From NCBI GenBank assembly GCA_001823535.1, contig MHUT01000018.1, positions 55,628 through 119,627 on the forward strand: a stretch of DNA of 64,000 nucleotides. The letters are read 5' to 3'. This DNA is from Candidatus Yonathbacteria bacterium RIFCSPHIGHO2_02_FULL_44_14. Lineage in GTDB: Bacteria; Patescibacteriota; Minisyncoccia; Phycocordibacterales; UBA1550. Under the pieces are notes generated by a model. The model searched no databases and was not told the origin of the DNA. It saw nothing but the letters and a program-made list of their open reading frames with translations. Of the stretch, positions 13,894-33,685 are shown one piece after another; the stretch's first letter is position 1; every line of letters begins with the position of its first letter. Made by a program: the position numbers and the translations under genes.

Positions 13894-13951
13894 TTTTGAT
13901 CCCACATATGTCTTCCGACAGATACAAAAAATGACCGAGGCCCGCTCGGTT

Positions 13952-14101
13952 ATTTTTTATTGCGGAGACGGTGGGTCGGTCACGAGTTTCTAATTCGCTC
14001 CGCTCATAAGAACTCTCGACCCCGGCTCACTGTCGCTTTGCGACATGTTCCGCCTTTCGAATCCCAACACGAGCCAAGCAGTTGGCTCGTTCCGTCTCCG
14101 C
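13952..14101. other. about 150-nt structured element closed by a 10-bp terminal stem that reuses the acceptor-end sequence of the adjacent tRNA-Ser (degenerate tRNA-derived or att remnant)
   Basis: GCGGAGACGG...CCGTCTCCGC terminal stem. 13952-13965 is a 14-bp direct repeat of the tRNA-Ser 3' end (14132-14145). There are internal hairpins and a degenerate T-arm-like piece. Confidence 0.3.
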
Positions 14102-14129
14102 AAAATTAAAACCCCTTTCGGGGTTAATT

Positions 14130-14219
14130 TGGCGGAGACGGTGGGATTCGAACCCACGGGAGTATTACTACCCCGCCTCGTTAGCAGTGAGGTGCCTTCG
14201 GCCGCTCAGCCACGTCTCC
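14130..14219 (-). tRNA. tRNA-Ser (anticodon GCT), long variable arm, CCA encoded
   Basis: Minus strand reads GGAGACGTGGCTGAGCGGCCGAAGGCACCTCACTGCTAACGAGG...GGGTTCGAATCCCACCGTCTCCGCCA: 7-bp acceptor stem, D-arm, anticodon loop CT-GCT-AA, long extra arm, T-loop TTCGAAT. Confidence 0.85.
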
Positions 14220-19474: not shown

Positions 19475-19490
19475 CAAAGAATTTAAATAC

Positions 19491-19538
19491 CATATATCTC
19501 CGCGGTCGAGGGTATCGAGTCCAAGTGGGTTGACCAAA
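19491..19538 (+). repeat. degenerate duplicate of the 3' half of tRNA-Ile (anticodon loop to 3' end)
   Basis: atatctccgcggtcgagggtatcgagtccaagtgggttgacca aligns to atatctctgcggtcccaggttcaagtcctggtggacgga of the tRNA, 17 nt downstream of it. Confidence 0.45.
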
Positions 19539-19539
19539 A

Positions 19540-20442
19540 ATGGAAAATAAAACACCACGCAAAGTAAATATTTTTTTGATATTATTCACTATTGTCTTTA
19601 TGTGTGCAACGGTATATTTGGGCTACCAAAACTACCAACTCAACCAAGCAAAGCTTTTGCTTGAAACAGAGCTTGTGAACACAAAACAGGATTTTGCATC
19701 AACAACAGAAAAACTTATGGGCGACATCGCAGCATTTAGAGACCTTCTCCTCGCAACACAAGCCGAAAGAGTAAACGCGGAACAAGACGTTCGCAAACAA
19801 CAAGAAGTACTCGATGCAATGTCAAACACACTGGGATCCTACGAGCGACTCGCAAACACCGACCGAGAACTTCTAGCAAAATATTCACGAGTGTATTTCT
19901 TGAACGAAAATTATAGCCCAAAACATTCTGTCACAATACCTCCCTCATACACATATAATGGGGACGGAGAGAAAATGATCTTGTCCGAAGTGTGGCCATT
20001 TCTTCAAAAAATGATCGACGATGCAAGTACCACAAACATTGATTTGAAAGTTGCTTCCGCATTTCGCTCATTCGATACGCAGAGCAAACTAAAATCTGCC
20101 TACACCGTTTCCTACGGCTCTGGTTCAAACAGATTTTCTGCCGACCAAGGATATTCCGAACACCAGCTAGGCACCACAGTAGATTTTACTACCTTAAAAA
20201 TAGGCTCTAATTTTTCCACATTTGAAAAAACAGCAAGTTACACATGGCTCACAGAAAACGCCTACAAATACGGGTTCATCCTTTCATATCCAAAAAAGAA
20301 TGCTTATTACATTTTTGAACCCTGGCACTGGAGATTTGTCGGAAAAGCCTTGGCGCTAAAACTGCATACTGAAAACAAAAACTTCTACGATGTTCCACAA
20401 CGTGACATTAATGAATATCTCATTAACATTTTTAACCAATAG
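19540..20442 (+). CDS. D-Ala-D-Ala carboxypeptidase VanY / peptidase M15B family (LAS metallopeptidase)
   Basis: N-terminal TM anchor. SEHQLGTTVD and EPWHWRFVG motifs match the H-x6-D ... E-x-W-H zinc ligand pattern of VanY-like enzymes. Confidence 0.65.
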   Translation: MENKTPRKVNIFLILFTIVFMCATVYLGYQNYQLNQAKLLLETELVNTKQDFASTTEKLMGDIAAFRDLLLATQAERVNAEQDVRKQQEVLDAMSNTLGSYERLANTDRELLAKYSRVYFLNENYSPKHSVTIPPSYTYNGDGEKMILSEVWPFLQKMIDDASTTNIDLKVASAFRSFDTQSKLKSAYTVSYGSGSNRFSADQGYSEHQLGTTVDFTTLKIGSNFSTFEKTASYTWLTENAYKYGFILSYPKKNAYYIFEPWHWRFVGKALALKLHTENKNFYDVPQRDINEYLINIFNQ

Positions 20443-23403: not shown

Positions 23404-23809
23404 CGGGGATGATCGGCCTAGACAGGCGATTCCCTCTTGTAGGTGCTATGCCGAGAATACTCGAGATCTCGTTAAACCTCGAGTACCAACCTAGTTGCAA
23501 AAAACAACCTCGTTGCAAAAGCAAAGTCAATTGTTTCACCTTTCTTTAAGGCGAACGACTTTGCTCCTACTTACGCTTTAGCCTAAGTAGCATTCGCGCT
23601 CAATACGCCCTCTAGGGAGTTGCGGGTGATATAAAAAGAGGGCTCATCGCTTTGAATGACTCTACGAAGTGAAAAAACATAGAGCATCGATAGTGTATAA
23701 TTTAGAATACTTTATATATACATTATTTAAACCCAAAAGAAGTATTCTACGCATAGTAGATTCCCACAAGAGCATCGTCTGCACGGGGGTTCGATTCCCC
23801 CCATCTCCA
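23404..23809 (+). ncRNA. ssrA: tmRNA (ssrA), about 406 nt, immediately downstream of smpB
   Basis: 5' GGGGATG pairs with 3' CATCTCC, including a G3:U70 wobble (the AlaRS identity element). T-arm GGGGG-TTCGATT-CCCCC. Internal tag ORF from resume codon GCG at 23550 encodes ANDFAPTYALA, stop TAA 23583-23585. 3' end followed by discriminator A. Confidence 0.8.
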
Positions 23810-25367
23810 CATCGTGGGAGTTTACACACGCAAACTCCTCAAAAAGCCTTACAGCACAAGGCAGGTTATCGGTTCGATAGCCTGTCTTTTTGCTATACGC
23901 CAGTTTCTCTTCAAAAATGAAGAAATAGAGCCTGTGTTTTTCAAGCACATCGACAGAGCTCCATATCTTGTATGGGCTTTTAAGCAATCCTGTAGCCTTA
24001 TTGAGGGCGGTTTGATAAGGAACCGATGTATCAGACAAATCGATATCAACAGCCCCTATTCCCTCGAACTCAATTACTACTTCCTCAAGCTTGCCCTCGT
24101 ATGCTCTTTTAACCGCATCTGATTTTGCGGCTATAATCAAATCAGTAAGTTCACTAATTTTTACCTCAAGCTCTTGCCTCTTTCTTTGCTTAAGATCCTC
24201 TAACTTACGAATATCTCCAGCCTCTTCTTGCCAGACCCCACTAAAAACTTTTTGCACTAAGACATCTACACCTCCACCCAATATTTGTTTTTTCAAAAGA
24301 GAGGTGAAGGCATCTTCCATATCTTTTTTCCTTATCATCTTGCCATTTTGTTCGCAATTCTTGTTTTGACAATAATAATACGGGTATTTTTTAGACCTTC
24401 CTTTGACCCACGCGCCAGTAAGAGGTTTGTTGCACTCGCCACACACATGCAAACCACGCAACGGAAAGTCATCTGAGACATCCACTCGTATTCTCTTGCT
24501 CAATCCTTGAGATTTAGTCCTTCTTTGATTTATCTCGTATGTATCTAAAGAAATAATTGCCTTATGGTGCCCCTTGCGTCGTTCAACCTCCCACTCGGGA
24601 TATTCGATAGACCCTGAGTAAAACGGATCTCTGAGTATTATCGAAAACTTATCAATGTACTTCTCTGGCGACTGCTTTCCCCAAAACCCATTCTCTACCA
24701 GATACTTGCAGGCATCAATTTTTCTTACAAAGACTCCCGTTGAAAAGCTTTCAAGGGCGTATTTGAGCAATGGTGCCTCTGTTTTATGCGGCACCGCAAG
24801 TTTGCCATGCAAGGGGTCTTTAATCATCGTGTAGCCCTTTTTACTGCCAAACGTCCAGTATCCTGACTCAAGGCGAGCCTTCATTTTCTGAATTACCTGT
24901 CGTGTATTCTGTTTCCTTTCGAGCTGTCCCTGTGCGGCAAATATTGTTTCAACGAACTCACCTTCCGCAGTATCCTCAAAGTTAAAGTTTAAACATTCTG
25001 GCTTTGCATCACGCACCTTTAGTGCCATGCGCAACTTAATGTGAAATTGTGTATCTCGTGCAAACCTTTTTAAGTCATCAAAAATGACAGCAAATCGGAT
25101 AGACGGGTTCTTATCAAGATACTCAATCAACTGAGACATTGCAGGGCGGTTCATAAAATCTCCACCACCACTAAAACTGTCACGAAATACTTTTTCAACA
25201 ACATAACCCTGGCGTGAAGCATATTCACGGCAACGCTGTTCTTGTCCATCTAACCCATGCCCCTCTGTTGCCTGACGATCAGAAGACACGCGACAATAAA
25301 TGAGTGCTCGGTCATATTTAATAACACTTTTATCAAACAAACTCTTTTTCTTTTTAGTTTTACTCAT
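23727..25367 (-). CDS. large serine recombinase (resolvase/invertase catalytic domain + recombinase domain + zinc ribbon)
   Basis: N-terminus ALIYCRVSSDRQ... (catalytic Ser motif of serine recombinases), 546 aa with C-terminal Cys cluster (CGEC...C..C). The last ~27 codons overlap the 3' end of ssrA (GGIEPP = reverse complement of the T-arm). Confidence 0.8.
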   Translation of the reverse strand: MSKTKKKKSLFDKSVIKYDRALIYCRVSSDRQATEGHGLDGQEQRCREYASRQGYVVEKVFRDSFSGGGDFMNRPAMSQLIEYLDKNPSIRFAVIFDDLKRFARDTQFHIKLRMALKVRDAKPECLNFNFEDTAEGEFVETIFAAQGQLERKQNTRQVIQKMKARLESGYWTFGSKKGYTMIKDPLHGKLAVPHKTEAPLLKYALESFSTGVFVRKIDACKYLVENGFWGKQSPEKYIDKFSIILRDPFYSGSIEYPEWEVERRKGHHKAIISLDTYEINQRRTKSQGLSKRIRVDVSDDFPLRGLHVCGECNKPLTGAWVKGRSKKYPYYYCQNKNCEQNGKMIRKKDMEDAFTSLLKKQILGGGVDVLVQKVFSGVWQEEAGDIRKLEDLKQRKRQELEVKISELTDLIIAAKSDAVKRAYEGKLEEVVIEFEGIGAVDIDLSDTSVPYQTALNKATGLLKSPYKIWSSVDVLEKHRLYFFIFEEKLAYSKKTGYRTDNLPCAVRLFEEFACVNSHDVEMGGIEPPCRRCSCGNLLCVEYFFWV

Positions 25368-25530
25368 GTGTTTTGTTTACTTCCTTCTCATCTACACTGA
25401 GGTGTGTTTGTAGTTCGGTTTTTATAACATTTCGACAAAATGCTTCGAGATACTTTAAGCGTTTAGTAATACTTTCATCCGATGTCTTTTGATCATTCAG
25501 TATCTTGCGATACTCCTCAACTGTAACCAT
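25360..25530 (-). CDS. small ORF (56 aa) translationally coupled to the serine recombinase, possible accessory / directionality factor
   Basis: MVTVEEYRKILNDQKTSDESITKRLKYLEAFCRNVIKTELQTHL... Its stop overlaps the recombinase ATG (CATGAGTAA arrangement). Too short for the ORF track. Confidence 0.2.
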   Translation of the reverse strand: MVTVEEYRKILNDQKTSDESITKRLKYLEAFCRNVIKTELQTHLSVDEKEVNKTHE

Positions 25531-25620
25531 GTATTTTCATGATTGCGATACTGATTCAGTTTTTCCTGATAGCACATATCTTTTTTATAATGCTTTGGTT
25601 TTTCCCAATAGCAGAATGTT

Positions 25621-26430
25621 TTATTTAAATCTTTTTTTCTTGGTTACCTCAAGAGACTTAGTTTCTCCGTCCTCCGCCTGAAAAACAACTTTGCCATACA
25701 TTCGATTATTTTTTATCTCTTTTTGTACATCCAAATAAGACTGGGGATTTTGAAACACTTTAGTGCTTTCTATTTCAAATATTTTTCCTTTGTTTAAACG
25801 AACCGAGACTTTTTTATTCTCCTCAGAGCGCAATTCTGAAAGAGTTTCTTGCTCCTCTGCGTTTAGATAGTCAAGAAAATGCATACCAACCACTTTGTGC
25901 CCCAAGTCCTCAAGAATCGCCGCCAGAGAGATTAGGGTAACATCGTAATGGCTCTTAAGTATTTTAAGAAACTGCACCTCAGACGGAGCCGCCAAATGGA
26001 CCTCCCCGTTCGAAATTATAATAATGTAAGGATCATCTGATGTACTTAGAGCCTTGGCGATATAAAACTCAAACAAAAGATAACTGCCGCTTTTTTTATC
26101 TAATTTAAGTAGACTTTCTTTAGCCGACTTAATTTTATCTAAAGATAATCCCGCTTCTCTCATTCTGACAATTGCCTTTATCCAAACAAGTTCAACAAGT
26201 GTAAATTTTCTCCAACCACCTCCCTCAATAACCCCATCTGGCAACAAATTATTTGTAGCCCAATGGTGTATCATTCTGTAGTTAACCTCAGTGTCGCTTA
26301 CTGTAAATTTTTTTGACCTCATATTCTCCCAAAATACTTCGTATTCTGGCGAAGAACAATACTCTTTAAAATCATTGATACGATTCTCGTTTTTCTCAAC
26401 AAAGGCACCTGATATCTCTTTTTTCTTCAT
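25621..26430 (-). CDS. hypothetical protein (269 aa), possible HTH-like segment
   Basis: The segment WRKFTLVELVWIKAIVRMREAGLSLDKIK loosely resembles a MerR/excisionase-type HTH. Otherwise no motif. AT-rich. Confidence 0.35.
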   Translation of the reverse strand: MKKKEISGAFVEKNENRINDFKEYCSSPEYEVFWENMRSKKFTVSDTEVNYRMIHHWATNNLLPDGVIEGGGWRKFTLVELVWIKAIVRMREAGLSLDKIKSAKESLLKLDKKSGSYLLFEFYIAKALSTSDDPYIIIISNGEVHLAAPSEVQFLKILKSHYDVTLISLAAILEDLGHKVVGMHFLDYLNAEEQETLSELRSEENKKVSVRLNKGKIFEIESTKVFQNPQSYLDVQKEIKNNRMYGKVVFQAEDGETKSLEVTKKKRFK

Positions 26431-26626
26431 ATACTAAATTATACATAGATGTAAGCTTTAATCAAACAACTTGTCCACAAAGCCAAATAGTTCCATGTTC
26501 ATCTCCCTTATCAGCCCCCCCAATATACCCAAAGTCTTTATCCTTTATTTTTTTCACCAAAAACCAAACGGACCTTTAAATTAGCCGTAATTCAGCGATT
26601 TTTACTTTTTTAGAAAAGGACAATGT

Positions 26627-26985
26627 TCCCTTTTCCTTCACCCTTTCTTAACCTTGCTCTTCTTTACAAAAAAACAGATCTGTCCTTATAATTAGGACGT
26701 TATTTTAAATTTACGCTCCCGCATTCAAGGTGAAATTAACCATGAAATTCACCTTTTCTTTTCCTTGCTTTTCTTTGCAAAAAACCAACTAACCCTTTTA
26801 ACTAAGGCATTATTGGGGAATTTACGCTTCGCAGTCAAGGACAAATTATCCATGCAATTTACCTTTTCTTTTCATTGACTGCCTATACATAAAATTCATT
26901 AAACCCTTACAGTGAGGGTATTATTTAAAAATTAACACCCTAATTATCAATGATAATCTTTCTTTGCTTTTAACCTTTTTCGAAT
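26627..26985. repeat. three degenerate tandem repeats of about 120 bp in an 800-bp intergenic region, each ending in an AAGGTGAAATT-type inverted repeat (iteron-like)
   Basis: Unit consensus ttcaccttttcttttccttgc...caaaaaac...ttacgct(c/t)cgca(t/g)tcaagg(t/a)(g/c)aaatta(a/t)ccatg(a/c)aat. Perfect 11-bp inverted repeat aaggtgaaatt/aatttcacctt at 26727-26755. Confidence 0.5.
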
Positions 26986-27227
26986 CCGTAGACATACACC
27001 TAATGCCCCATCGGAGTTCGTGTGTACACCTATGCCGTTTGATGATAAAATAACCCTACAACCAAATAAGGAAGTATCCTAAACCATTGAGCAATCGGTG
27101 GCATGGTGAATAAGTCGAGTTAAGCATAAAGAACCCATCATGGGGTCGCTTAACTCGCCATATCGGGAAACCGGTATGAGTGGCTTAGGCCACTACCCGT
27201 GGTGGGCTTTTTGTATATCCAATAAAA

Positions 27228-28229
27228 ATGAAATCTAACAAAATATTAATACTCACCACCGCTTTTGCGAGCATTCTAACTTTGAGTGGTGTTGGTTATG
27301 TCAGTGTAAGGCAATATCAAAATTATCAGGAAGCGAGGGTTGGCGAAGCAAAGCAAGCACAAGAGCAAAGCATTGCCTTAAGAGATGCAGCCGTAGAAAT
27401 TAAAAAACTTAAACAAGAAAGCGAGCTGGCTAAACAAAAGCAAACAAGCCTTGAAGAGAGGGTTGGCGATGCCGCCAAATCGAGTGTACAAAACTTGTCG
27501 ATATCATCAACAGAACTTGCCCCCTACTTAACTGGTGTAGTCGAAATTGACTGTGTAGACACTAAAGGTAGCGGCTCTTTGTGGAATCTACCCGGCGTGG
27601 GTTACGTCGTTTTGACCAATAAGCATGTTGTAACCAAACCTTACCCAGCGACTGGGACATGCTGGGTAATGATTAGCGACTCAGAGAGAAGCAAAATCTC
27701 TGGTGACTTTAACACTATTGGTGTATATGACCTTAATCCAATTAAAAGATTTGCTTATAAATATCAACAGGCAGTGAACAGCAAGGTGGACATTGCCGTC
27801 TATCCAATTGAAAACAAAAATTTTGCAGAAATTAGCAATCCGATTGAAGGCTTAAACTATAAAATTTCTTCGCTAAAAAAGTGTCCTGAAGAGATGCCCG
27901 CCGGCTCCCCTATTGTTTTATTAGGATTCCCAGCATTTACAGAAAAAACAATAGAGGTCTTTGGATCTTCTCAAAACAAATCTTTCAGAACGATTACCAA
28001 TGGCATAATTAGCGCTCATGACACTTCAGTTACTGGCATATTTGGCGATTTGCCGTACGTCAATTATTTCGTCTCAGCAAAAATCGACAGTGGTAATTCT
28101 GGTGGAATTGCGTTTTCAAAGGATTCAAGGGGGTTGTGCGTCTTAGGAATCCCCACGTGGCTTACTGTTGGTAATTACGAAACACAAGGACTAATTCAAA
28201 ACATACATAATGCCTTTTACTCAAAATAA
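27228..28229 (+). CDS. membrane-anchored / secreted trypsin-like serine peptidase (S1 family)
   Basis: N-terminal TM/signal, coiled-coil linker, then catalytic-triad contexts TNKHVV (His), DIAVYP (Asp), DSGNSGG (Ser). Confidence 0.6.
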   Translation: MKSNKILILTTAFASILTLSGVGYVSVRQYQNYQEARVGEAKQAQEQSIALRDAAVEIKKLKQESELAKQKQTSLEERVGDAAKSSVQNLSISSTELAPYLTGVVEIDCVDTKGSGSLWNLPGVGYVVLTNKHVVTKPYPATGTCWVMISDSERSKISGDFNTIGVYDLNPIKRFAYKYQQAVNSKVDIAVYPIENKNFAEISNPIEGLNYKISSLKKCPEEMPAGSPIVLLGFPAFTEKTIEVFGSSQNKSFRTITNGIISAHDTSVTGIFGDLPYVNYFVSAKIDSGNSGGIAFSKDSRGLCVLGIPTWLTVGNYETQGLIQNIHNAFYSK

Positions 28230-28255
28230 CGAAATAATTTGAACATCAAAAAAAC

Positions 28256-28465
28256 ATGAACAAACCTTTTGTCGCTTGGAATTTAATATGGGTAGTGATA
28301 GCTCTTACTGTCATACTATTTTCTGACAGTTCAACTAACTGGGGCCAAGCTATGCCAGTCGTAGTTGCATCAATAGTCCTCTATTTTTCTATAGGAAAAA
28401 GAATTGACCACCTTGAAAGTAAGATTGACGCAAAAAAATCAAAAACTAATAAACTACATCAATAA
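28256..28465 (+). CDS. small membrane protein (69 aa, 2 TM)
   Basis: Hydrophobic ORF immediately downstream of the protease gene. Confidence 0.3.
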   Translation: MNKPFVAWNLIWVVIALTVILFSDSSTNWGQAMPVVVASIVLYFSIGKRIDHLESKIDAKKSKTNKLHQ

Positions 28466-28470
28466 TAAAA

Positions 28471-30222
28471 CTACTCTTTCGACTCTTCATAGTCGATAGC
28501 CTGTTTAAACTGTTTATAGAACAAAGGATCACTAACACTGAGTTTTACAACCTGTCTATCTCGAACATCAAACTTGAGCTCTTTGTCAGCTAAAGCATCA
28601 GGCATCACATCAGAATTATAGGTCGCAATATACTGAAAAGAATTCTCGTCCAAAGAATGTATATAGTTAACGATGTTGAAAGTAGCATCGTTGTCTATGT
28701 CACCAAAAAGTAGCCTATCGTGGACTAATAATTTTTGCATTTTTTCAGATGTGTGCTCGTTAACCAGTAAGCTCAGATCGTAAATTATCTGCCTAACTCG
28801 ATTTACTCCTTCACTCCCTTGCCGATGTGCTTCTGCTTTTATCTTAAAGAACTCTTTATCTTTTATATTTCTTTTTAGGCTTAAGTCAAAAGCAAATACT
28901 CCATCTTTGTTGCCATAGATTTTCTCGTGAATATCAAGAAAAGTTTTACGAAAAGATACTTCTTTTCCATTGACAACAAAGAAGGCGGCTTCCAGCGTTG
29001 AATACAGTGTTTGAAACTCAGAATTTACCTCTCTTGCATTCTGGTCATATTCATCGTAGGTTTCTATAAGTTTCCCATTATCATTAAAATCATTTATTAA
29101 TTCATGAGAAATCTTCAGCCCTCTTTGAAGATGGTTTCTCCCTTCAGTAATAATTGCTTGATACTTCAACGTATTAACCCTCTGGGTAGTGATGTCGTTT
29201 TCCAAGCGTGCAAGGCTACCCCTGAGAGCGTCTTCTTGCCCTGAGAGCATCTCCGCCTCAAAAACATGGATTTCGTCCCTAAACTTTTTCAACTGTTCTA
29301 AATCTCTTTGCACAAAATCTCCGAGTCCTGCAATATACTTATTAAAAAAACGTTGTAATTGCTTGTCTGTGATAATCGTATCTTCATCTTGATGCCCGAG
29401 AAATTCCTCGATTTCACTAAGTTGGTACTCAATCCTACCCTTCTGTCTAAGGGTGTCAGTCAATGCGTCCTCTGCCTCTTGCAACTTTGATGAATTACTT
29501 GAAACCTCTTTTGAGATTTCGTCGTAGGACAACCCTTGCTCTATTTTTACTATTCTCTCCTCTAAATCCGATTGTAGAGAACGCAGTTTATTAATATCAA
29601 GCCCCTTGTCTTCTATTTTCTTTATTGTCACCCTTGAAACAGTGCTTAGGCTGTCATACTCATCTTGCTTTGATCGAAGTTGTTCAAATAATTTTACAGG
29701 TAGTCCAAAGAAATATAAACTGGTGCGCAACCTATCTATTACATTAGACGGAAAAAAGTAAAGAAAAGTAGAATAAGAGTAATTAGATTCTTTAATTACA
29801 AAATTACATAGTTCCCTAAAAGAAATATCATTACCTAACCCTGAGATGTTAGCAAGTTCATCTTTAGCAGTTTTTTCTGACATCTCCTGGAACTCACCAT
29901 TATCAACCTTCATCAATACTTCATTTTTCTTATTTCGCGCTACCGTAACATCCTTCCCGTTAATGGTAAGGTTCATGTACACGAAGGAATTCTGAGGGAG
30001 AATGCTATCTGGCACCCCGTGTATGCGACCCTCGCTCTCTCTTTTCATCAAAACAAAATTAATTAATTCAATTGAGAGGCTTTTCCCAGACCCATTTCGC
30101 TGCTCATTTACATTGCCATTTTTGTCCTTTGAATTTTCTCCAACAATAAAATTTATCCCCGGTTTAAAAACGAGTTCTTTAAACCTATTTTCCTCAGACC
30201 AGACTCTATTGATTCTTATCAT
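28471..30222 (-). CDS. coiled-coil ABC-type (SMC/RecF-like) ATPase, candidate ABC-3C-system ATPase (DUF2326-like)
   Basis: N-terminal P-loop FKPGINFIVGENSKDKNGNVNEQRNGSGKSLSIELINFVL; about 300 aa predicted coiled coil; C-terminal Walker B / D-loop KLLVHDRLLFGDID. 583 aa. Confidence 0.55.
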   Translation of the reverse strand: MIRINRVWSEENRFKELVFKPGINFIVGENSKDKNGNVNEQRNGSGKSLSIELINFVLMKRESEGRIHGVPDSILPQNSFVYMNLTINGKDVTVARNKKNEVLMKVDNGEFQEMSEKTAKDELANISGLGNDISFRELCNFVIKESNYSYSTFLYFFPSNVIDRLRTSLYFFGLPVKLFEQLRSKQDEYDSLSTVSRVTIKKIEDKGLDINKLRSLQSDLEERIVKIEQGLSYDEISKEVSSNSSKLQEAEDALTDTLRQKGRIEYQLSEIEEFLGHQDEDTIITDKQLQRFFNKYIAGLGDFVQRDLEQLKKFRDEIHVFEAEMLSGQEDALRGSLARLENDITTQRVNTLKYQAIITEGRNHLQRGLKISHELINDFNDNGKLIETYDEYDQNAREVNSEFQTLYSTLEAAFFVVNGKEVSFRKTFLDIHEKIYGNKDGVFAFDLSLKRNIKDKEFFKIKAEAHRQGSEGVNRVRQIIYDLSLLVNEHTSEKMQKLLVHDRLLFGDIDNDATFNIVNYIHSLDENSFQYIATYNSDVMPDALADKELKFDVRDRQVVKLSVSDPLFYKQFKQAIDYEESKE

Positions 30223-30508
30223 GTTTCTTAATAGTTATATACGGTCTTTCAAATTCGATTAACTTTAGTGCATACATTAAAAATATTGCGAAATATATTT
30301 GCCTTCCAGGAACACGCGGGCTGATTTTTCTTATCTGATTGAATAAAGTATAAATTGGGATATTTTTGTCCTCCCGCAACATACCTGGGGCACGAACGTT
30401 ATCTCGCAAAAGTAAATAACAAAGATATATTGGGCTTGAAGTAATCCGGGCATGCTTGTTAAAAAGCGAAAGCTGTACATTTTCCTTTTCTACTAAAACT
30501 TGTTTCAT
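30206..30508 (-). CDS. small (100 aa) protein, candidate middle component of the three-gene system
   Basis: Overlaps the ATPase start by 17 nt. Its start abuts the stop of the upstream gene (30510), indicating translational coupling. Confidence 0.4.
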   Translation of the reverse strand: MKQVLVEKENVQLSLFNKHARITSSPIYLCYLLLRDNVRAPGMLREDKNIPIYTLFNQIRKISPRVPGRQIYFAIFLMYALKLIEFERPYITIKKHDKNQ

Positions 30509-30509
30509 A

Positions 30510-31517
30510 TTATATCTTAATTAAAGGAAAAACGTCGCATTTAAAAAACATATTCAGCAAGAAACTTAAGACATGTGAACTTGGGACAAATCCCAAACCT
30601 AACTCATTTCTCATTTGTAAGGCCATCTGGTTAATAGCATTCACTGGGTCGTTGTTATTCGCGTGAAGCAAAATTGTACTTTTGGTTCTTAGATATCCCT
30701 GTATAACACTCTTGTCGACCTCGTTTAGATCCTGAGAAAATGCTTCTTCTACATATTTGTGGTAGGAAATAAACCTCTCAATCTCAGACCCATCGTCTTT
30801 TAAACCAATGGAGGCTTTATAGATCTGGACCAACGCAGTCCATTCATCATTATATTTTTTCATTTTTTCCGCAGGGCTTGTTATGTACACCAGCTCCTCG
30901 TTCTCAATATTACTTTCCGATGAATTATTTCTCAACGAGAGGTTGAGAGAATTGAATAACATTTTGAACACTTCGGCATCCACATTTCTGTTAGAAATAA
31001 CATCTTCTGGCATAACAATAGATCCTTCGACATACGCACATATTTTCTTCATTTGTTCATCATCTGCATTATCAATCTCACGGAATATTTCGGCTGCAGA
31101 CAAAATCTTCAAAGAATAGCCTTCGTAAGACGGAGCAAATTTTTTAAGGTTATTTGGTAAATCAGTATCCTGAATTACAAAAAGAACCTCTGAAAAATCT
31201 TTATTCTCAGAAAAGGGTGGGATACTTGTGAAGGTATTTTTGATCTTTGATAAATCCTTTTGAACAGTTACTTGAATGCCTTGCTTCTTTTTAGTACTCA
31301 GAACATCAATACCCGGATAATTTACTTTTAATTTTTTTGTTGGTATATATTCTGGGTTATCCTTTTCGTATAGAATATTATATAATCCTGTTATAAAATC
31401 TTCAGCAGAAATTGCCCCGTTATTTCTGTTTGTTTTTGAATCTGTCCTGTTCTTTTGAAAATACAAAAGGGTCTTTGATGTTATTGAGTCCCACATCTTC
31501 TCCCTTAAAGTAATCAT
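30510..31517 (-). CDS. 335-aa protein, candidate effector component (first gene of the operon)
   Basis: First gene of the co-directional trio. Weak PD-(D/E)xK-like spacing around PGIDVL...KQGIQVTVQK. Otherwise unassigned. Confidence 0.35.
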   Translation of the reverse strand: MITLREKMWDSITSKTLLYFQKNRTDSKTNRNNGAISAEDFITGLYNILYEKDNPEYIPTKKLKVNYPGIDVLSTKKKQGIQVTVQKDLSKIKNTFTSIPPFSENKDFSEVLFVIQDTDLPNNLKKFAPSYEGYSLKILSAAEIFREIDNADDEQMKKICAYVEGSIVMPEDVISNRNVDAEVFKMLFNSLNLSLRNNSSESNIENEELVYITSPAEKMKKYNDEWTALVQIYKASIGLKDDGSEIERFISYHKYVEEAFSQDLNEVDKSVIQGYLRTKSTILLHANNNDPVNAINQMALQMRNELGLGFVPSSHVLSFLLNMFFKCDVFPLIKI

Positions 31518-31890
31518 GATTTAAATATTATAGCACCCAATCACACAAGACCGCTACTCAATCGCCAGCTGACTTATTATCAAATTCTTATATTCTCACG
31601 TGGTCAACATCGTGTGACTTCAAAACATCTCATATGGCCTGTTTTATGACCCTACAAGCACCTTTTAAACCTCTTGGTTCTCAAAATATAGAGCTCTGAA
31701 TGACCATTAACTGTGTAGCCTGACTTTCCCACCCATTCTAACTAATACTTAATTCAATACTCTACCTGTGCCCCTCTGATGACTGCTTAATCAAACATTT
31801 GCAAGGGCTAATTGTAGCGCAGGACTGCTTTGATAATATGTCCAAAAGCGAGAAAGATAGGTTTTTACACGGTTTAATGTTTTTTGGCGT

Positions 31891-31954
31891 ATCTCCACAA
31901 ATATGCAAAAAACCCAGAACAAGCGTTCTGGGTTTTTTGCATATTTGTGGAGAT
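31891..31954. repeat. perfect 64-bp palindrome (30-bp arms, 4-nt centre) containing a bidirectional intrinsic-terminator core
   Basis: atctccacaaatatgcaaaaaacccagaac-aagc-gttctgggttttttgcatatttgtggagat. The left arm starts with atctccaca, identical to the last 9 nt of ssrA (23803-23811). Confidence 0.6.
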
Positions 31955-31956
31955 GA

Positions 31957-32455
31957 GCAGTGTGCCTGCGCACACTGCGTGGGGGAATCGAAGCCTCGGA
32001 GCATATTTTTGTTTGCCACCTGCAAACAAAAATGCGAGAGGCAGCCAAAGAACGCGAGATGTTTTATGAATCCGATAGGATGAAATAAAACTCCGCGATT
32101 CTGAGGCGATGAACCTGGGGAATCGAGAAGCAGAAGCGGGCACCTAGTGTACTCACTGGGTCGCTGAGATGGGGCTGAAAGTACTTGGTGCTCGCAGTGA
32201 GTACTCTCACGAGAACACCTAGTAACTTGTAGCCGATGAACCCCAAAGACGCCTGTGCGTCTTGCGTGGGGGAATCGAAAGACGGAGGCATCCCGAGGCT
32301 TCTGCGAAGGAGCCGAGTCGGGGTAGCGGATACTTAATGCTCGCAGGGCGTACTCGCCCGAGAACATTTAGTAATCCGTGACCGATGAACCCTGAATCAA
32401 AAAGCTCAGGCGGATACCCTGTGTACTCACATGGTATCCGAGTTAGGCTGAAAGT
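31957..32455. repeat. tandem array (3-4 copies) of about 140-nt structured repeat units, candidate ncRNA(s)
   Basis: Units end in cgatgaacc (32107-32115, 32234-32242, 32383-32391) and begin with (t)ggggaatcga(g/a)aag. Conserved hairpins with loop TACT whose stems differ by compensatory changes (gcagTGAGtactCTCAcgag 32194-32213 vs gcagGGCGtactCGCCcgag 32343-32362). Confidence 0.5.
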
Positions 32456-32480
32456 AAAAAGCGCTTCCGAAGAAGCGCGT
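32456..32480 (-). terminator. intrinsic terminator downstream of the 32512..32934 gene (minus strand)
   Basis: GCGCTTC-ttcg-GAAGCGC followed by TTTTTAC on the minus strand. Confidence 0.45.
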
Positions 32481-32511
32481 TGTCAAAAATCTCAAAAAAA
32501 GAACAAGTGTA

Positions 32512-32934
32512 TCAACAAACCAAATCTTCTTCGGCCTCGCCTTCATTGGGGCAAGTGCCGGTGAACGCATTGAGACACCAGATATTGTTACAAGATACAC
32601 AACTGGCATCCCGAACTTCTTGGTGGCGTGGCAACTCCCACAATAACACTGCTGCACGGCCGCCTTGTGCCTCGGGTTCCTGCTGATCAACAACATCCGC
32701 TAACTCATGCGGATCCAACACTTCGTCGAAATCGGGCGAATAACCTTGGGGTGTCGTGACACCCTCTTTGATTGGTGGTTTCCAAAAATGAACGAGGTGC
32801 AGCATTGCAATATATCTTGCGTTTTCAGCCATCCCTAAAGATGGAGTGATTTTCCGTGCATAGGGCAAGGAAGCCCTTCTTTCTACATTCATTTTTGTTC
32901 CCCTTTCAAAAAACTGTTCGAAAATATGACCCAT
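32512..32934 (-). CDS. hypothetical protein (140 aa)
   Basis: ORF with Cys-rich C-terminus (CVSCNNIWCLNAFTGTCPNEG). No assignable family. Confidence 0.3.
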   Translation of the reverse strand: MGHIFEQFFERGTKMNVERRASLPYARKITPSLGMAENARYIAMLHLVHFWKPPIKEGVTTPQGYSPDFDEVLDPHELADVVDQQEPEAQGGRAAVLLWELPRHQEVRDASCVSCNNIWCLNAFTGTCPNEGEAEEDLVC

Positions 32935-33055
32935 TTATTGCATAAATATAACTGAAATATTGTATCATATATTGAATGTTTTGTATAGGGCTTCGTGTAT
33001 TATGATATAAGAAAGTTTGTTGTGCCACTTTACAAAACAAAAAAAAGTAGTATAA

Positions 33056-33685
33056 ATGCAAAAGGGTTTGCCCTTTCATTCACACAAGGAGGTTATCATG
33101 TATGAGGAACGAATTTCCTACAACAAGGAAACGTTATTGGATTTAGCTCATTCGCAATTCGGGGGATTCTATAACAGACGAATGGACAAAGAAAATTTCT
33201 TGCAAGACTTGTGGAGTATGCTTGCATCATTTACACGCTATAACAAATGCAACTCACTCATTCAAAGTGCGGTGCTCAACCTTGAGCACAGCGATCTTAT
33301 ACCCCGCACTTTTCTTATCCTCTCGATACAGTACGGATCATTTCACCTCACTCCAAGCAGGATAAGCATTCTCAAGGACTTCATCGGTCTGCTTGATAAA
33401 GATTTTGAGGATGAAGAGTTGCGTGTTTGCGCGTATGCTCACGAAAAAACTTTCACCTTCTTCCCGGAGCTTTATCAGGTTTGGCAGAACATTCGGGAGG
33501 TATATGGAGCAGAAGAATTTAATTTGAGCGTACTCCCTCCAACGCCATACTATGCGTACCACTTTCTCGCACTCAACCGCAGGGGAAAAATGGAAAAGAA
33601 TCCACGGGGTGCGGAATTGTTCGGGGAACTCTGCGCTATTGAACATCAAATGGAAAAGCTTTTTTTGCTCACAACTCCCCTGTAA
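33056..33685 (+). CDS. hypothetical protein (209 aa)
   Basis: Clean ORF with a plausible RBS context. No recognisable motif. Confidence 0.35.
   Translation: MQKGLPFHSHKEVIMYEERISYNKETLLDLAHSQFGGFYNRRMDKENFLQDLWSMLASFTRYNKCNSLIQSAVLNLEHSDLIPRTFLILSIQYGSFHLTPSRISILKDFIGLLDKDFEDEELRVCAYAHEKTFTFFPELYQVWQNIREVYGAEEFNLSVLPPTPYYAYHFLALNRRGKMEKNPRGAELFGELCAIEHQMEKLFLLTTPL

What the first reader, a model, noticed from the sequence alone, without database searches (positions are those of the whole stretch)
31957..32455. Tandem array of about 140-nt structured repeat units with compensatory stem mutations: candidate novel ncRNA family
The roughly 500-bp ORF-poor, GC-rich segment after the palindrome contains 3-4 head-to-tail units, each ending in cgatgaacc and starting with (t)ggggaatcga(g/a)aag. 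Within the units, a hairpin with conserved flanks (tgctcgcag / cgagaaca) and conserved loop TACT has stems TGAG/CTCA in one copy and GGCG/CGCC in the next. That is a double compensatory change preserving base pairing, the hallmark of selection on RNA structure. Further conserved hairpins recur: gtgtactcac..., and GCAGTGTGC-ctgc-GCACACTGC at 31957-31978. A GTACTC motif recurs in loops. Overlapping ORFs are low-complexity and repeat-derived. The location at the edge of a mobile island next to a defence-like operon is typical for structured ncRNAs of unknown function.
Basis: seen in the sequence. Interest (0 to 1): 0.7.

Follow-up and report, generated by a model that had tools for sequence, protein, structure and literature searches.

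The report
tRNA-end-mimicking structured RNA array after tmRNA
The repeats are real: they are one array of an undescribed family of folded RNA modules that sit just after tmRNA and some tRNA genes in tiny groundwater (CPR) bacteria, framed by copies of that gene's own 3' end that pair into a tRNA-like stem.

Summary
Window 31944-32454 (+) carries three full units and one partial unit of 122-136 nt. They are diverged paralogues (60-73% identical), not clean repeats. No Rfam family matches.

I found 57 units in 33 loci, all from Patescibacteria/Parcubacteria. A 44-pair three-way-junction structure shows strong covariation and one near-invariant G.U pair.

[quoted passage not shown] A serine-recombinase island (23813-31890) has since split the two. 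In relatives the array directly follows ssrA (6 of 6 loci in a sample not chosen for the element), or follows tRNA-Ser, Gly, Lys, His or Ala. The window holds a second copy after tRNA-Ser (14065-13970, minus strand).

Each array starts with the reverse complement of its own host gene's T-loop, T-stem and acceptor 3' strand. A conserved 25-nt hairpin often sits exactly at the acceptor/T-stem boundary. Complete arrays end with a sense copy, so the ends pair into a tRNA-like acceptor/T helix.

Orthologous tRNA-Ser sites are filled or empty, and filled sites have direct repeats, so the unit behaves as an insertion.

Best reading: a read-through-transcribed, tRNA-end-mimicking RNA carried by a small insertion element. 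Its function is unknown, and RNA versus folded DNA is unresolved.

The parts
23405..23812 (+). tmRNA gene (ssrA), the host gene whose 3' end the array copies. It ends ...GGGGGTTCGATTCCCCCCATCTCCACAT.
   Evidence: Rfam RF00023 at 121.8 bits. ARAGORN finds a tmRNA with a tag peptide. Sequence.
23813..31890 (.). Island inserted into the tmRNA 3' end, separating ssrA from its array. It is context, not part of the element. It carries a large serine recombinase, MerR, LOOT RNA, Trypsin_2, DUF2326 and SMEK_N.
   Evidence: Pfam and Rfam LOOT. A 9-nt repeat ATCTCCACA lies at 23804-23812 and 31891-31899. Relatives without the island have the array directly after ssrA.
31891..31954 (+). Perfect palindrome with 30-bp arms. 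It comprises the displaced last 9 nt of tmRNA (ATCTCCACA), the trailer, an intrinsic terminator, and the antisense of all of these.
   Evidence: the repeat finder I1, 100% complementary. The same layout directly follows ssrA in L041, L093 and L108.
31944..31955 (+). TTTGTGGAGATG, the reverse complement of the tmRNA acceptor 3' strand plus the first trailer bases. It mimics the acceptor 5' strand.
   Evidence: Alignment to the reverse complement of the tmRNA 3' end.
31956..31980 (+). hp1: a conserved 25-nt hairpin (9-bp stem, CUGC loop) inserted exactly between the acceptor-antisense and the T-stem-antisense.
   Evidence: 13 examples from different loci all fold as 9 bp plus a 4-nt loop, with many compensatory changes. 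Position shown.
31981..31992 (+). GGGGGAATCGAA, the reverse complement of the tmRNA T-stem 3' strand plus T-loop (TTCGATTCCCCC). It forms the 5' strand of closing helix P1 of unit A.
   Evidence: This segment changes with the host gene (ATTCGAA for tRNA-Ser, GGCAGG for tRNA-Lys, CGAGAATCGAA for the L110 tmRNA).
31983..32115 (+). Unit A, a variant module with a different interior. It is about 91% identical (mean column identity of the three-way alignment) to copies in L041 and L052.
   Evidence: R1 40.5 bits, E 4e-8. Alignment A2.
32118..32242 (+). Unit B, a canonical three-way-junction module (P1; P2 with a GUGUACUCAC tip; long P3 with a GAGUACUC tip).
   Evidence: R1 123.2 bits. Covariation.
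32246..32267 (+). hp2: a second copy of the hp hairpin (AAGACGC-ctgt-GCGTCTT-GCGT), lying between unit B and unit C.
   Evidence: the repeat finder D3. Fold.
32270..32391 (+). Unit C, a canonical module.
   Evidence: R1 111.1 bits.
32392..32454 (+). Unit D, a truncated module with a degenerate X (CTGAATCAAAAAG), P2 and the 5' strand of P3 only. The array lacks the terminal sense copy seen in complete arrays.
   Evidence: R1 21.8 bits, E 0.009. The repeat finder D2 and D7. Compare the complete L109 array.
14130..14219 (-). tRNA-Ser(GCU), host gene of the second copy in this window.
   Evidence: ARAGORN and Rfam.
14056..14129 (-). Read on the minus strand: trailer and terminator, CGGAGACGG (antisense acceptor, 14100-14092), hp (14091-14067), and TGGGATTCGAA (antisense T-stem and T-loop, 14066-14056).
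   Evidence: Sequence, alignment and fold.
13970..14065 (-). A single short-type unit 3' of tRNA-Ser.
   Evidence: R1 59.3 bits, E 9e-13.
13925..13979 (-). CCGA-CCCACCGTCTCCGCA, a sense copy of the tRNA-Ser T-stem 3' strand, acceptor 3' strand and discriminator. It is followed by its own terminator.
   Evidence: 14-nt direct repeat with the tRNA. It pairs with the antisense segment in the MFE fold.

Best explanation
The segment is one array of a previously undescribed family of 96-135-nt modules with a three-way junction (closing helix P1, hairpin P2, long hairpin P3). The modules are embedded in the 3' flank of tmRNA and some tRNA genes of Parcubacteria.

An array begins with the reverse complement of its host gene's T-loop, T-stem 3' strand and acceptor 3' strand. 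A conserved 25-nt hairpin is often placed exactly where the D and anticodon arms leave a real tRNA. A complete array ends with a sense copy of the same strands. The two ends pair into a 10-14-bp helix that resembles a tRNA acceptor/T stack and encloses the modules.

Shown here: the family, its structure and covariation, its strand, its linkage to tRNA/tmRNA 3' ends, the host-matched flanks, and filled versus empty orthologous sites with direct repeats.

Inferred:
1. The element is transcribed on the host-gene strand by read-through from the strong tRNA/tmRNA promoter.
2. The tRNA-like ends let tRNA-end enzymes (RNase P, RNase Z, perhaps the CCA-adding enzyme) cut it out and stabilise it.
3. 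It arrived as a small protein-less insertion into the T-loop/3' end that rebuilt the host gene's 3' end. Arrays then grew by serial insertion or duplication.

What the mature RNA does is unknown. A decoy or scaffold for a factor that binds tRNA or tmRNA ends is one guess.

The window's tmRNA array is an old, partly decayed copy. An island cut it off from ssrA, and it is truncated at its 3' end.
For: Family: a genome scan and a metagenome scan gave true homologues only in Patescibacteria. Model R1 finds 57 units at E<=1e-5 in 33 sources. All lie on the host-gene strand. None of about 50 chance loci scores above 23 bits.

Structure, MAFFT alignment A4: 83.4% of cells paired against 71.0% in shuffles and about 33% when partners are slid. 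34 of 44 pairs have double changes. Covariation score 0.311 against 0.140 (0 of 500 shuffles reach it).

Structure, model-fitted alignment A6: 87.8% paired, 38 of 44 pairs with double changes, score 0.421 against 0.143.

Strand: a G.U pair in P3 is present in 30 of 30 and 41 of 45 units. Unpaired columns are 75% purine.

Linkage: the unit lies 50-110 nt 3' of tmRNA or of tRNA-Ser, Gly, Lys, His or Ala. In a sample chosen only by SmpB homology, 6 of 6 assessable ssrA loci carry 1-3 units.

Host-matched flanks: complementarity score to the cognate host averages 19.9 (minimum 15.5), against 10.7 (maximum 16.6) for non-cognate host types. X changes with the host T-loop and T-stem.

End-to-end closure: in unconstrained MFE folds of five single elements and of the 527-nt L109 array, 9-14 of the first 15 nt pair with the 3' end.

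Insertion behaviour: the orthologous tRNA-Ser locus is empty in L101 and L102. It is filled in the window, in L100 (where tRNA and unit are inverted as a block) and in L103. Direct repeats are 14, 19 and about 78 nt, and L081 has a 17-nt direct repeat.

Co-transcription: L084 has no U-tract terminator between tRNA-Lys and the unit. No promoter-like site lies on the + strand in 31400-33100.
Against: - There are no expression data of any kind.
- Most loci have a good intrinsic terminator between the host gene and the unit, so read-through may be rare.
- The inner P1 helix (AUCG/CGAU) hardly varies, so it cannot be tested by covariation.
- Without the invariant G.U pair, G.U (50) and A.C (45) cells are balanced. 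Strand assignment therefore rests on that pair, on purine-rich loops and on constant orientation.
- Sense and antisense copies of a target are also what a folded single-stranded DNA recombination site would look like.
- The antisense-acceptor part is present even at empty sites, as part of long palindromic terminators. Only hp, X, the core and Y are specific to the element.
- No recombinase is consistently linked.
- The mimic has A3-U70, not the G3.U70 of tmRNA, so charging is unlikely.
- The window's own tmRNA array lacks the closing sense copy.
Confidence: 0.5

Rival explanations
1. A DNA-level element. The units would be remnants or miniature non-autonomous versions of elements that integrate in tRNA/tmRNA genes. 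Their hairpins would work as folded single-stranded (or cruciform) DNA recombination or replication sites. The sense and antisense copies of the target would pair to imitate the attachment site, as in CTX-phage attP(+) hairpins or integron attC sites. Any RNA made would be incidental.
For: - Location at the 3' ends of tmRNA and several tRNA genes.
- Direct repeats of 14-78 nt.
- Filled and empty orthologous sites.
- An inverted tRNA-plus-unit block, and arrays of variable length.
- A perfect 30-bp-arm palindrome that extends past the U-tract, where terminated RNA would not reach.
- An asymmetric GA/GAA bubble in the sense:antisense duplex.
- Islands demonstrably use the same site.
Against: - No integrase, Xer-type or HUH gene is consistently nearby, and the tmRNA context is core genes.
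- Unit-specific patterns found no true unit in 2.9 million viral contigs: one pattern gave nothing and the other gave only chance-level matches that R1 does not recognise.
- A near-invariant G.U (G.T in DNA), purine-rich junctions, and a hairpin placed exactly at the acceptor/T-stem boundary are typical of RNA mimicry. They have no obvious meaning for a DNA site.
- Presence at 6 of 6 ssrA loci argues for long-term retention.
Confidence: 0.2
2. A cis-acting part of the host transcript. It would be a structured 3' trailer that controls maturation, termination or stability of tmRNA/tRNA. For example, the antisense segment could pair with the host 3' end in read-through transcripts to make an RNase III-type processing stem, or to block faulty precursors. 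There would be no independent product.
For: - The unit is always on the same strand and within about 110 nt of the host 3' end.
- 22-24 nt are perfectly complementary to the host end.
- In the MFE fold of the tRNA-Ser co-transcript, the tRNA's own 3' half pairs with the antisense segment.
- Presence after ssrA is near-universal in this clade.
Against: - Empty tRNA-Ser sites in close relatives show the host gene works without it.
- Most tRNA genes in the fetched loci lack it.
- In the window an 8-kb island separates ssrA from the array, yet the array is 100% conserved in six independent assemblies, though these are one population.
- A processing stem does not need a conserved three-way junction, multiple modules or a terminal sense copy.
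Confidence: 0.15
3. Neutral debris. These would be decayed duplicates of tRNA/tmRNA 3' ends and terminators left by repeated island integration and excision, with no selected structure.
For: Pseudo-copies of the tmRNA 3' end lie between units (L041, L093, L110). The window array is truncated. Accretion of islands with repeated ssrA ends is known (PMC3146451, PMC5704250, titles and abstract only, not read in full).
Against: P2, P3 and hp are not derived from the host gene. Yet they keep pairing through hundreds of double substitutions, and they keep invariant junction bases across six host-gene types and many lineages.
Confidence: 0.04
4. The 201-aa ORF on the minus strand (31762-32367), called as a gene in several metagenome assemblies, encodes a protein.
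For: Gene callers predict it. ORFs overlap the units in 5 loci.
Against: - No Pfam match.
- NCBI's annotation of the same contig omits it.
- The ORFs are 80-201 aa and break differently in each genome.
- Unit lengths differ by non-multiples of three.
- The conservation follows base pairs, not codons.
Confidence: 0.01

Closest known systems
Remnants of genomic islands and cis-mobilisable elements stacked at tRNA/tmRNA genes (e.g. ssrA islands of Dehalococcoides, PMC3146451; CIMEs and accretion, PMC5704250)
   Same: They sit at the 3' end of tmRNA/tRNA genes. They are flanked by direct repeats of the gene's 3' end and have no integrase of their own. Arrays vary in length, and sites can be filled or empty.
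   Different: Here the insert is only about 200-500 bp. It has a conserved, covarying three-way-junction core and an antisense copy of the target. It occurs at six host-gene types with near-identical cores, and it is fixed at ssrA in the sampled clade.
tRNA-like non-coding RNAs and tRNA-linked transcripts (YrlA/Y RNA tRNA-like domain, PMC4201824; 3' external transcribed spacer sRNAs of E. coli tRNA operons, from my own knowledge)
   Same: The 5' and 3' ends form an acceptor-like helix, or the RNA derives from a tRNA 3' trailer. A dependence on tRNA-processing enzymes is plausible.
   Different: There is no D-loop/T-loop elbow; the T-loop position is occupied by the junction. The helix is copied from the neighbouring gene rather than being generic. 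The element lies after a terminator, and it comes in arrays.
Group I introns in tRNA and tmRNA genes (Patescibacteria anticodon-loop introns, PMC13011429; T-loop intron of clostridial tmRNA, cited there)
   Same: A structured RNA insertion tied to tRNA/tmRNA genes in the same phylum. The T-loop is the junction point. A guide-like segment is complementary to the flanking exon. A GIY-YIG gene lies in one array and near two others.
   Different: The host gene is uninterrupted and carries its own complete 3' end. There is no RF00028 hit even at E<=10. The minimal element is about 100 nt, too small for a group I core.
Folded single-strand recombination sites (CTX-phage attP(+), integron attC; from my own knowledge)
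   Same: Sense and antisense copies of a target can fold into a hairpin with a bubble. They are left next to the junction after integration, and tandem arrays form at one site.
   Different: No Xer or IntI link was found, there is no R'/R'' consensus, and the element has a branched conserved interior.
Type III antitoxin RNA arrays (ToxI; from my own knowledge)
   Same: Head-to-tail structured RNA units near defence genes.
   Different: ToxI units are about 36 nt and near-identical, and they sit next to a ToxN-type nuclease. Here units are 96-135 nt and diverged, and no such gene is present.

Membership tests
Any Rfam 15 family | Score at or above the family's gathering threshold | tested here: not met
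   No hit in 31957-32455 at gathering thresholds. At E<=10 the significant hits are microRNA-hairpin models on the 31891-31954 palindrome; the few hits overlapping the array (e.g. mir-637, CRISPR-DR25, PhotoRC-I) have E>1 and score far below their gathering thresholds. 20 homologous loci gave only tRNA, tmRNA and LOOT.
tRNA / tmRNA gene or pseudogene | Cloverleaf or tRNA-like domain recognised by ARAGORN or Rfam | tested here: not met
   ARAGORN finds only tRNA-Ser, tRNA-Ile and tmRNA in the window. There are no tRNA or tmRNA hits in the array at E<=10. ARAGORN's 'permuted tmRNA*' in L091 and L107 has an atypical tag and overlaps the true tmRNA.
Group I intron | Interrupts the host gene; P1-P9 core detectable | tested here: not met
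   tmRNA and the tRNAs are complete upstream of the element. No RF00028 hit.
Integrated element or CIME at a tRNA/tmRNA gene | Lies at the gene's 3' end and is flanked by direct repeats of that end | tested here: met
   Direct repeats of 14 nt (window tRNA-Ser), 17 nt (L081), 19 nt (L100) and about 78 nt (L103).
Integrated element or CIME at a tRNA/tmRNA gene | Present or absent at orthologous sites | tested here: met
   The tRNA-Ser locus is empty in L101 and L102. It is filled in the window, L100 and L103.
Integrated element or CIME at a tRNA/tmRNA gene | A related autonomous element with an integrase using the same site and sharing the sequence | tested here: not met
   No recurrent recombinase near arrays. 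The serine-recombinase island at the same site shares no unit. No unit was found in viral contigs.
MITE / REP-type dispersed repeat | Many copies scattered through intergenic DNA | tested here: not met
   In 64 kb the model hits only the flanks of tmRNA and tRNA-Ser. Each hit genome gave one locus in the genome scan. Whole genomes were not scanned.
Type III toxin-antitoxin RNA array | Short near-identical repeats next to a ToxN-like endoribonuclease gene | tested here: not met
   Units are 122-136 nt and 60-73% identical. Neighbouring proteins have no such domain.
Self-cleaving ribozyme (hammerhead and others) | Conserved catalytic core; Rfam model hit | tested here: not met
   No Rfam hit. 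CCGAUGAA and CGAAA resemble hammerhead boxes, but CGAU pairs with AUCG and U4 is replaced. Cleavage itself is not testable here.
tRNA-like RNA processed by RNase P / RNase Z | 7-bp acceptor-like helix stacked on a 5-bp T-like helix, with a single-stranded 3' tail after a discriminator | tested here: inconclusive
   The helix forms in MFE folds of complete elements, and hp sits at the 7/49 boundary. The tail is partly paired in some copies. There is no T-loop or D-loop, and processing cannot be tested with these tools.

The most novel reading that the evidence does not exclude
The element would be a protein-less mobile RNA element that homes to tRNA and tmRNA genes by itself. Its antisense T-loop/acceptor segment would act as a guide, and the three-way junction would be either a catalytic or recruiting core or the body of a small circular, viroid-like replicon whose free form joins Y to the trailer. 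Integration would then rebuild the host gene's 3' end and borrow the displaced end as its own tRNA-like terminus. That would be a new mode of RNA-guided insertion, or a new ribozyme class, in the most reduced bacteria known.
Probability: 0.1. Interest if true: 0.95.

Novelty: categorically new. Interest (0 to 1): 0.8.

Why it matters
If the reading is right, Parcubacteria carry a conserved RNA that copies the acceptor/T-stem of the gene it sits behind. They keep it behind every sampled tmRNA gene of one clade despite very small genomes.

It would add a new orphan structured RNA class with an unusually informative anatomy: host-matched mimicry, a precise tRNA-like topology, and insertion behaviour.

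It would also give a concrete handle on three open questions. How do CPR bacteria process and control tRNA and tmRNA? How do non-coding elements spread without their own enzymes? Why are tRNA and tmRNA 3' ends such universal landing pads?

Practically, gene callers turn the array into a false 201-aa protein, and ARAGORN can turn it into a false permuted tmRNA.

Tried and rejected
- **Rfam:** searched at gathering thresholds and at E<=10. Nothing credible.
- **blastn:** no match against 50,697 phage and 72,556 plasmid records.
- **Viral-contig pattern scans:** four of five returned only chance hits in coding DNA, and one returned none.
- **Synteny via the adjacent 140-aa gene:** failed. The gene is an orphan with no relative among 5.8 billion proteins.
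- **Six contigs carrying that gene:** all are 100% identical over the array, so they are uninformative.
- **Hammerhead resemblance (CCGAUGAA, CGAAA, three helices):** rejected on topology.
- **Similarity of the unit 5' part to the tmRNA 5' end (GGGGA..AUCG..CAGGCGG..GCCGAG):** rejected, because tRNA-linked units lack it.
- **tRNA-like reading of the minus strand:** rejected. There is no T-stem partner, and a conserved G.U would become C.A.
- **Pseudoknot between the hp loop CUGC and the GCAG internal loop:** rejected. Units with GGAG keep CUGC.
- **Aminoacylation of the mimic:** unlikely, because it has A3-U70.
- **Host tRNAs all served by class II synthetases:** noted, but n=5, so not pursued.
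not found.
- **GIY-YIG nuclease as a mobility factor:** seen in only 3 loci, so left open.
Full report
**Observation**

The sequence at 31957-32455 is as described. GGGGAATCGA opens three units and CGATGAACC closes them. The motif GCTCGCAG-4-TACT-4-CGAGAAC occurs twice, with stems TGAG/CTCA and GGCG/CGCC, where 0.01 matches are expected by chance. The units are diverged paralogues rather than clean repeats. Tandem Repeats Finder finds nothing, and B and C are 73% identical over 81 nt.

The anatomy is:
- hp1, 31956-31980
- unit A, 31983-32115
- unit B, 32118-32242
- hp2, 32246-32267
- unit C, 32270-32391
- a truncated unit D, 32392-32454

Both strands fold far better than shuffles (z -9.3 and -10.4). 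No Rfam family matches at gathering thresholds. At E<=10 the significant hits are microRNA models on the neighbouring palindrome; the few that overlap the array have E>1 and fall far below their gathering scores.

**Source and surroundings**

The window is from a Candidatus Yonathbacteria MAG (Parcubacteria, Patescibacteria). The genes run as follows:
- Left of the array: a perfect 30-bp-arm palindrome (31891-31954).
- Further left: an island carrying SMEK_N, DUF2326, Trypsin_2, LOOT RNA, MerR and a large serine recombinase.
- Then the tmRNA gene at 23405-23812.
- Right of the array: a convergent orphan gene with its own terminator, then pyrH.

**Homologues**

An exact-pattern scan of one genome per species returned 57 loci. 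The six from Patescibacteria are real, including L020, which only the model revealed. A second pattern in JGI metagenomes gave 29 loci, about 22 of them real.

A covariance model (R1: 124 positions, 44 pairs) finds 57 units at E<=1e-5 in 33 sources. All lie on the strand of the adjacent tRNA or tmRNA. The roughly 50 chance loci score no more than 23 bits. Scans of viral contigs and blastn against phage and plasmid collections found nothing real.

**Structure**

A unit has three helices:
- P1: AUCG/CGAU, an asymmetric GA/GAA loop, then G-rich/C-rich pairs.
- P2: a 3-bp base that takes at least seven pair combinations, a G(C/G)AG/CGA internal loop, and a hairpin often tipped by GUGUA(C/A)UCAC.
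- P3: a long hairpin with a bulged A and a near-invariant G.U pair.

| Measure | MAFFT alignment A4 | Model-fitted alignment A6 |
|---|---|---|
| Cells paired | 83.4% | 87.8% |
| Cells paired after shuffling | 71.0% | 68.2% |
| Cells paired with partners slid | about 33% | about 35% |
| Pairs with double changes | 34 of 44 | 38 of 44 |
| Covariation score (shuffled) | 0.311 (0.140) | 0.421 (0.143) |
| Shuffles reaching the observed score | 0 of 500 | 0 of 500 |

The G.U pair is present in 30 of 30 and 41 of 45 units. Unpaired columns are 75% purine. Together with the constant orientation, this points to the host-gene strand as the structured strand. Without the invariant pair, G.U and A.C cells are balanced (50 against 45), so the strand call is good but not proven. 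The inner P1 helix is almost invariant, so covariation cannot test it.

**The real context**

In relatives without the island, the array starts 50-110 nt after the tmRNA 3' end (L028, L041, L056, L073-75, L083, L086, L090-94, L097). In other loci it follows tRNA-Gly, Lys, His or Ala. The window itself has a second copy after tRNA-Ser(GCU), at 14065-13970 on the minus strand (59 bits).

In the window, the island was inserted between ssrA and its array. ATCTCCACA is repeated at 23804-23812 and 31891-31899. Related islands occupy the same site in L043, L052 and L104.

I sampled seven ssrA loci by SmpB homology alone (82-87% identity). Six carry 1-3 units. In the seventh, the island fills the locus to its end, so it cannot be assessed. 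Neighbours of the arrays are core genes (ftsH, smpB, pyrH, infC, rpmI, rplT). No recombinase recurs.

**Host-matched flanks**

The 22-24 nt before each first unit are the reverse complement of the host gene's T-loop, T-stem 3' strand, acceptor 3' strand and first trailer bases:

| Host gene | Flank before the unit | Host 3' end it complements |
|---|---|---|
| tmRNA | GGAGATG-[hp]-GGGGGAATCGAA | TTCGATTCCCCCCATCTCC |
| tRNA-Ser | CGGAGACGG-[hp]-GGGATTCGAA | TTCGAATCCCACCGTCTCCG |
| tRNA-Lys | CGCCCG-[hp]-GCAGGAATCGAA | |
| tRNA-Gly | GCGGTTACCGGGAATCGAA | |
| L110 tmRNA (T-stem CTCGC) | CGAGAATCGAA | |

Complementarity scores average 19.9 for the cognate host and 10.7 for non-cognate host types.

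The 25-nt hairpin hp (9 bp, CUGC loop; 13 examples with many compensatory changes) sits exactly between the acceptor and T-stem parts. That is where the D and anticodon arms leave a tRNA.

Complete elements end with a sense copy of the same strands:
- window tRNA-Ser: GTGACCGA-CCCACCGTCTCCGCA, followed by a terminator
- L109: ...CCGA-CCCCCCATCTCCACA
- L079: ...CGCCCATCTCCACCA, followed by a terminator

Internal junctions carry the variant CCGATGAACC. Unconstrained folds of five single elements and of the 527-nt L109 array pair the two ends into a 9-14-bp helix around P2 and P3.

**Insertion behaviour**

The locus PilM - phosphoribosyltransferase - tRNA-Ser - pgsA - M3 peptidase - RecG is conserved. 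The tRNA-Ser 3' flank varies:
- Empty in L101 and L102 (54-60 nt to the next gene).
- Filled in the window.
- Filled in L100, where the tRNA and the unit are inverted together.
- Filled in L103.

Direct repeats are 14, 19 and about 78 nt. L081 has a clean 17-nt repeat of the tRNA-His end.

Empty sites already have long perfect palindromic terminators that begin inside the acceptor 3' strand. The antisense-acceptor segment is therefore a general trait of these terminators. The element proper is hp + X + core + Y.

**Interpretation**

Three things are established:
1. Selection maintains a branched fold in segments that owe nothing to the host gene.
2. The flanks track the host gene.
3. The unit behaves as an insertion that leaves the host gene intact.

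The simplest model joining these is a small protein-less element whose product is an RNA. It would be transcribed by read-through from the tRNA/tmRNA promoter. L084 has no terminator between tRNA and unit, and no promoter-like site lies on the + strand around the window array. The RNA's tRNA-like ends would let tRNA-processing enzymes release and stabilise it.

The main rival is that the fold acts in single-stranded DNA as a recombination site imitating the target. I rate the RNA model 0.5, the DNA model 0.2, a purely cis-acting processing role 0.15, and neutral debris or a protein-coding ORF 0.05 or less together.

Function is unknown. The window's tmRNA array is cut off from ssrA and lacks the closing sense copy, so it may be decaying. 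It is nevertheless identical in six assemblies of the same population.

**Comparison and novelty**

It shares location, direct repeats and accretion with island remnants at tRNA/tmRNA genes (PMC3146451, PMC5704250; cited from search results, not read in full). It shares end-pairing with tRNA-like RNAs (PMC4201824). It shares phylum and target class with group I introns of Patescibacteria tRNAs (PMC13011429). It fails defining features of each: there is no integrase relative, no tRNA elbow and no interrupted host gene.

Four full-text searches found no description of it. I therefore treat it as a new family of a kind not yet named, with the caveat that its function and even its active molecule (RNA or DNA) remain to be shown.

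Noticed in passing
window 23727-31890: An island is integrated in the tmRNA 3' end. It carries a large serine recombinase, MerR, LOOT RNA (27076-27194, 85.9 bits), a trypsin-like protease and a DUF2326/SMEK_N (ABC-3C-like) operon. The same island type, or its conserved right end, occupies the same site in L104, L043 and L052. LOOT recurs in L052, so LOOT may be an island-borne RNA.
   Followed up: partly
window 31800-31890; L043 6470-6545; L052 6660-6745: The island's right end is conserved across three genomes. It includes a weak outward-facing promoter-like pair (TTGTAG-16-TAATAT) aimed at the tmRNA terminator. It could be an attP arm or a small island transcript.
   Followed up: no
L101 2640-2760 and L102 2690-2810 (minus strand); window 14092-14129: tRNA terminators in these Parcubacteria are long perfect palindromes whose left arm starts inside the acceptor 3' strand. 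The antisense arm lies beyond the U-tract, even where no unit is present. The reason is unexplained; they may be bidirectional terminators.
   Followed up: partly
L079 775-1014; L106 3470-3739; L109 3466-3738: Small GIY-YIG nuclease genes (79-90 aa, 37-41% identical to one another; Pfam E 1.9e-16 for L079) lie between two units in L079, and between smpB and ssrA in L106 and L109. They may be homing-type nucleases linked to this locus.
   Followed up: partly
L091 4570-4996; L107 3845-4271: ARAGORN calls a 'permuted tmRNA*' spanning the true tmRNA 3' end and the first unit. This is an artefact of the sense/antisense acceptor copies, which formally resemble a two-piece tmRNA gene.
   Followed up: partly
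window 31762-32367 (minus strand): A 201-aa ORF across the array is annotated as a gene in several metagenome assemblies, but not in NCBI's annotation of the same contig. It is a false protein created by the GC-rich RNA units.
   Followed up: yes
window 32512-32934 (minus strand) and 33056-33685 (+): Two genes sit between the array and pyrH. The 140-aa one has no relative at all among 5.8 billion proteins, and neither has a Pfam match. Relatives such as L028 have pyrH directly after the unit. These genes may be leftovers of another insertion that truncated unit D.
   Followed up: partly
window 19476-19545: Downstream of tRNA-Ile(UAU) lies a P3-like remnant (GGTCGAGGGTA...GTTGACC) that the model does not detect. 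It may be a decayed unit.
   Followed up: no
L041 5408-5500; L052 7120-7215; L108 4070-4150; L109 4555-4625: A further conserved two-hairpin spacer recurs inside arrays, just before an X-like AGAATCGAA. Its sequence is GGTCGTAAATTTCACACAAC...GTTGTGTGAAATCTTAC...GATTTTTGAAGTGCAAAAATC. I did not model it.
   Followed up: no
L100 2684-3005: In the MAG that also gave L028, the tRNA-Ser gene and its unit are inverted as a block relative to the conserved flanking genes. This may have happened through the element's inverted repeats.
   Followed up: no
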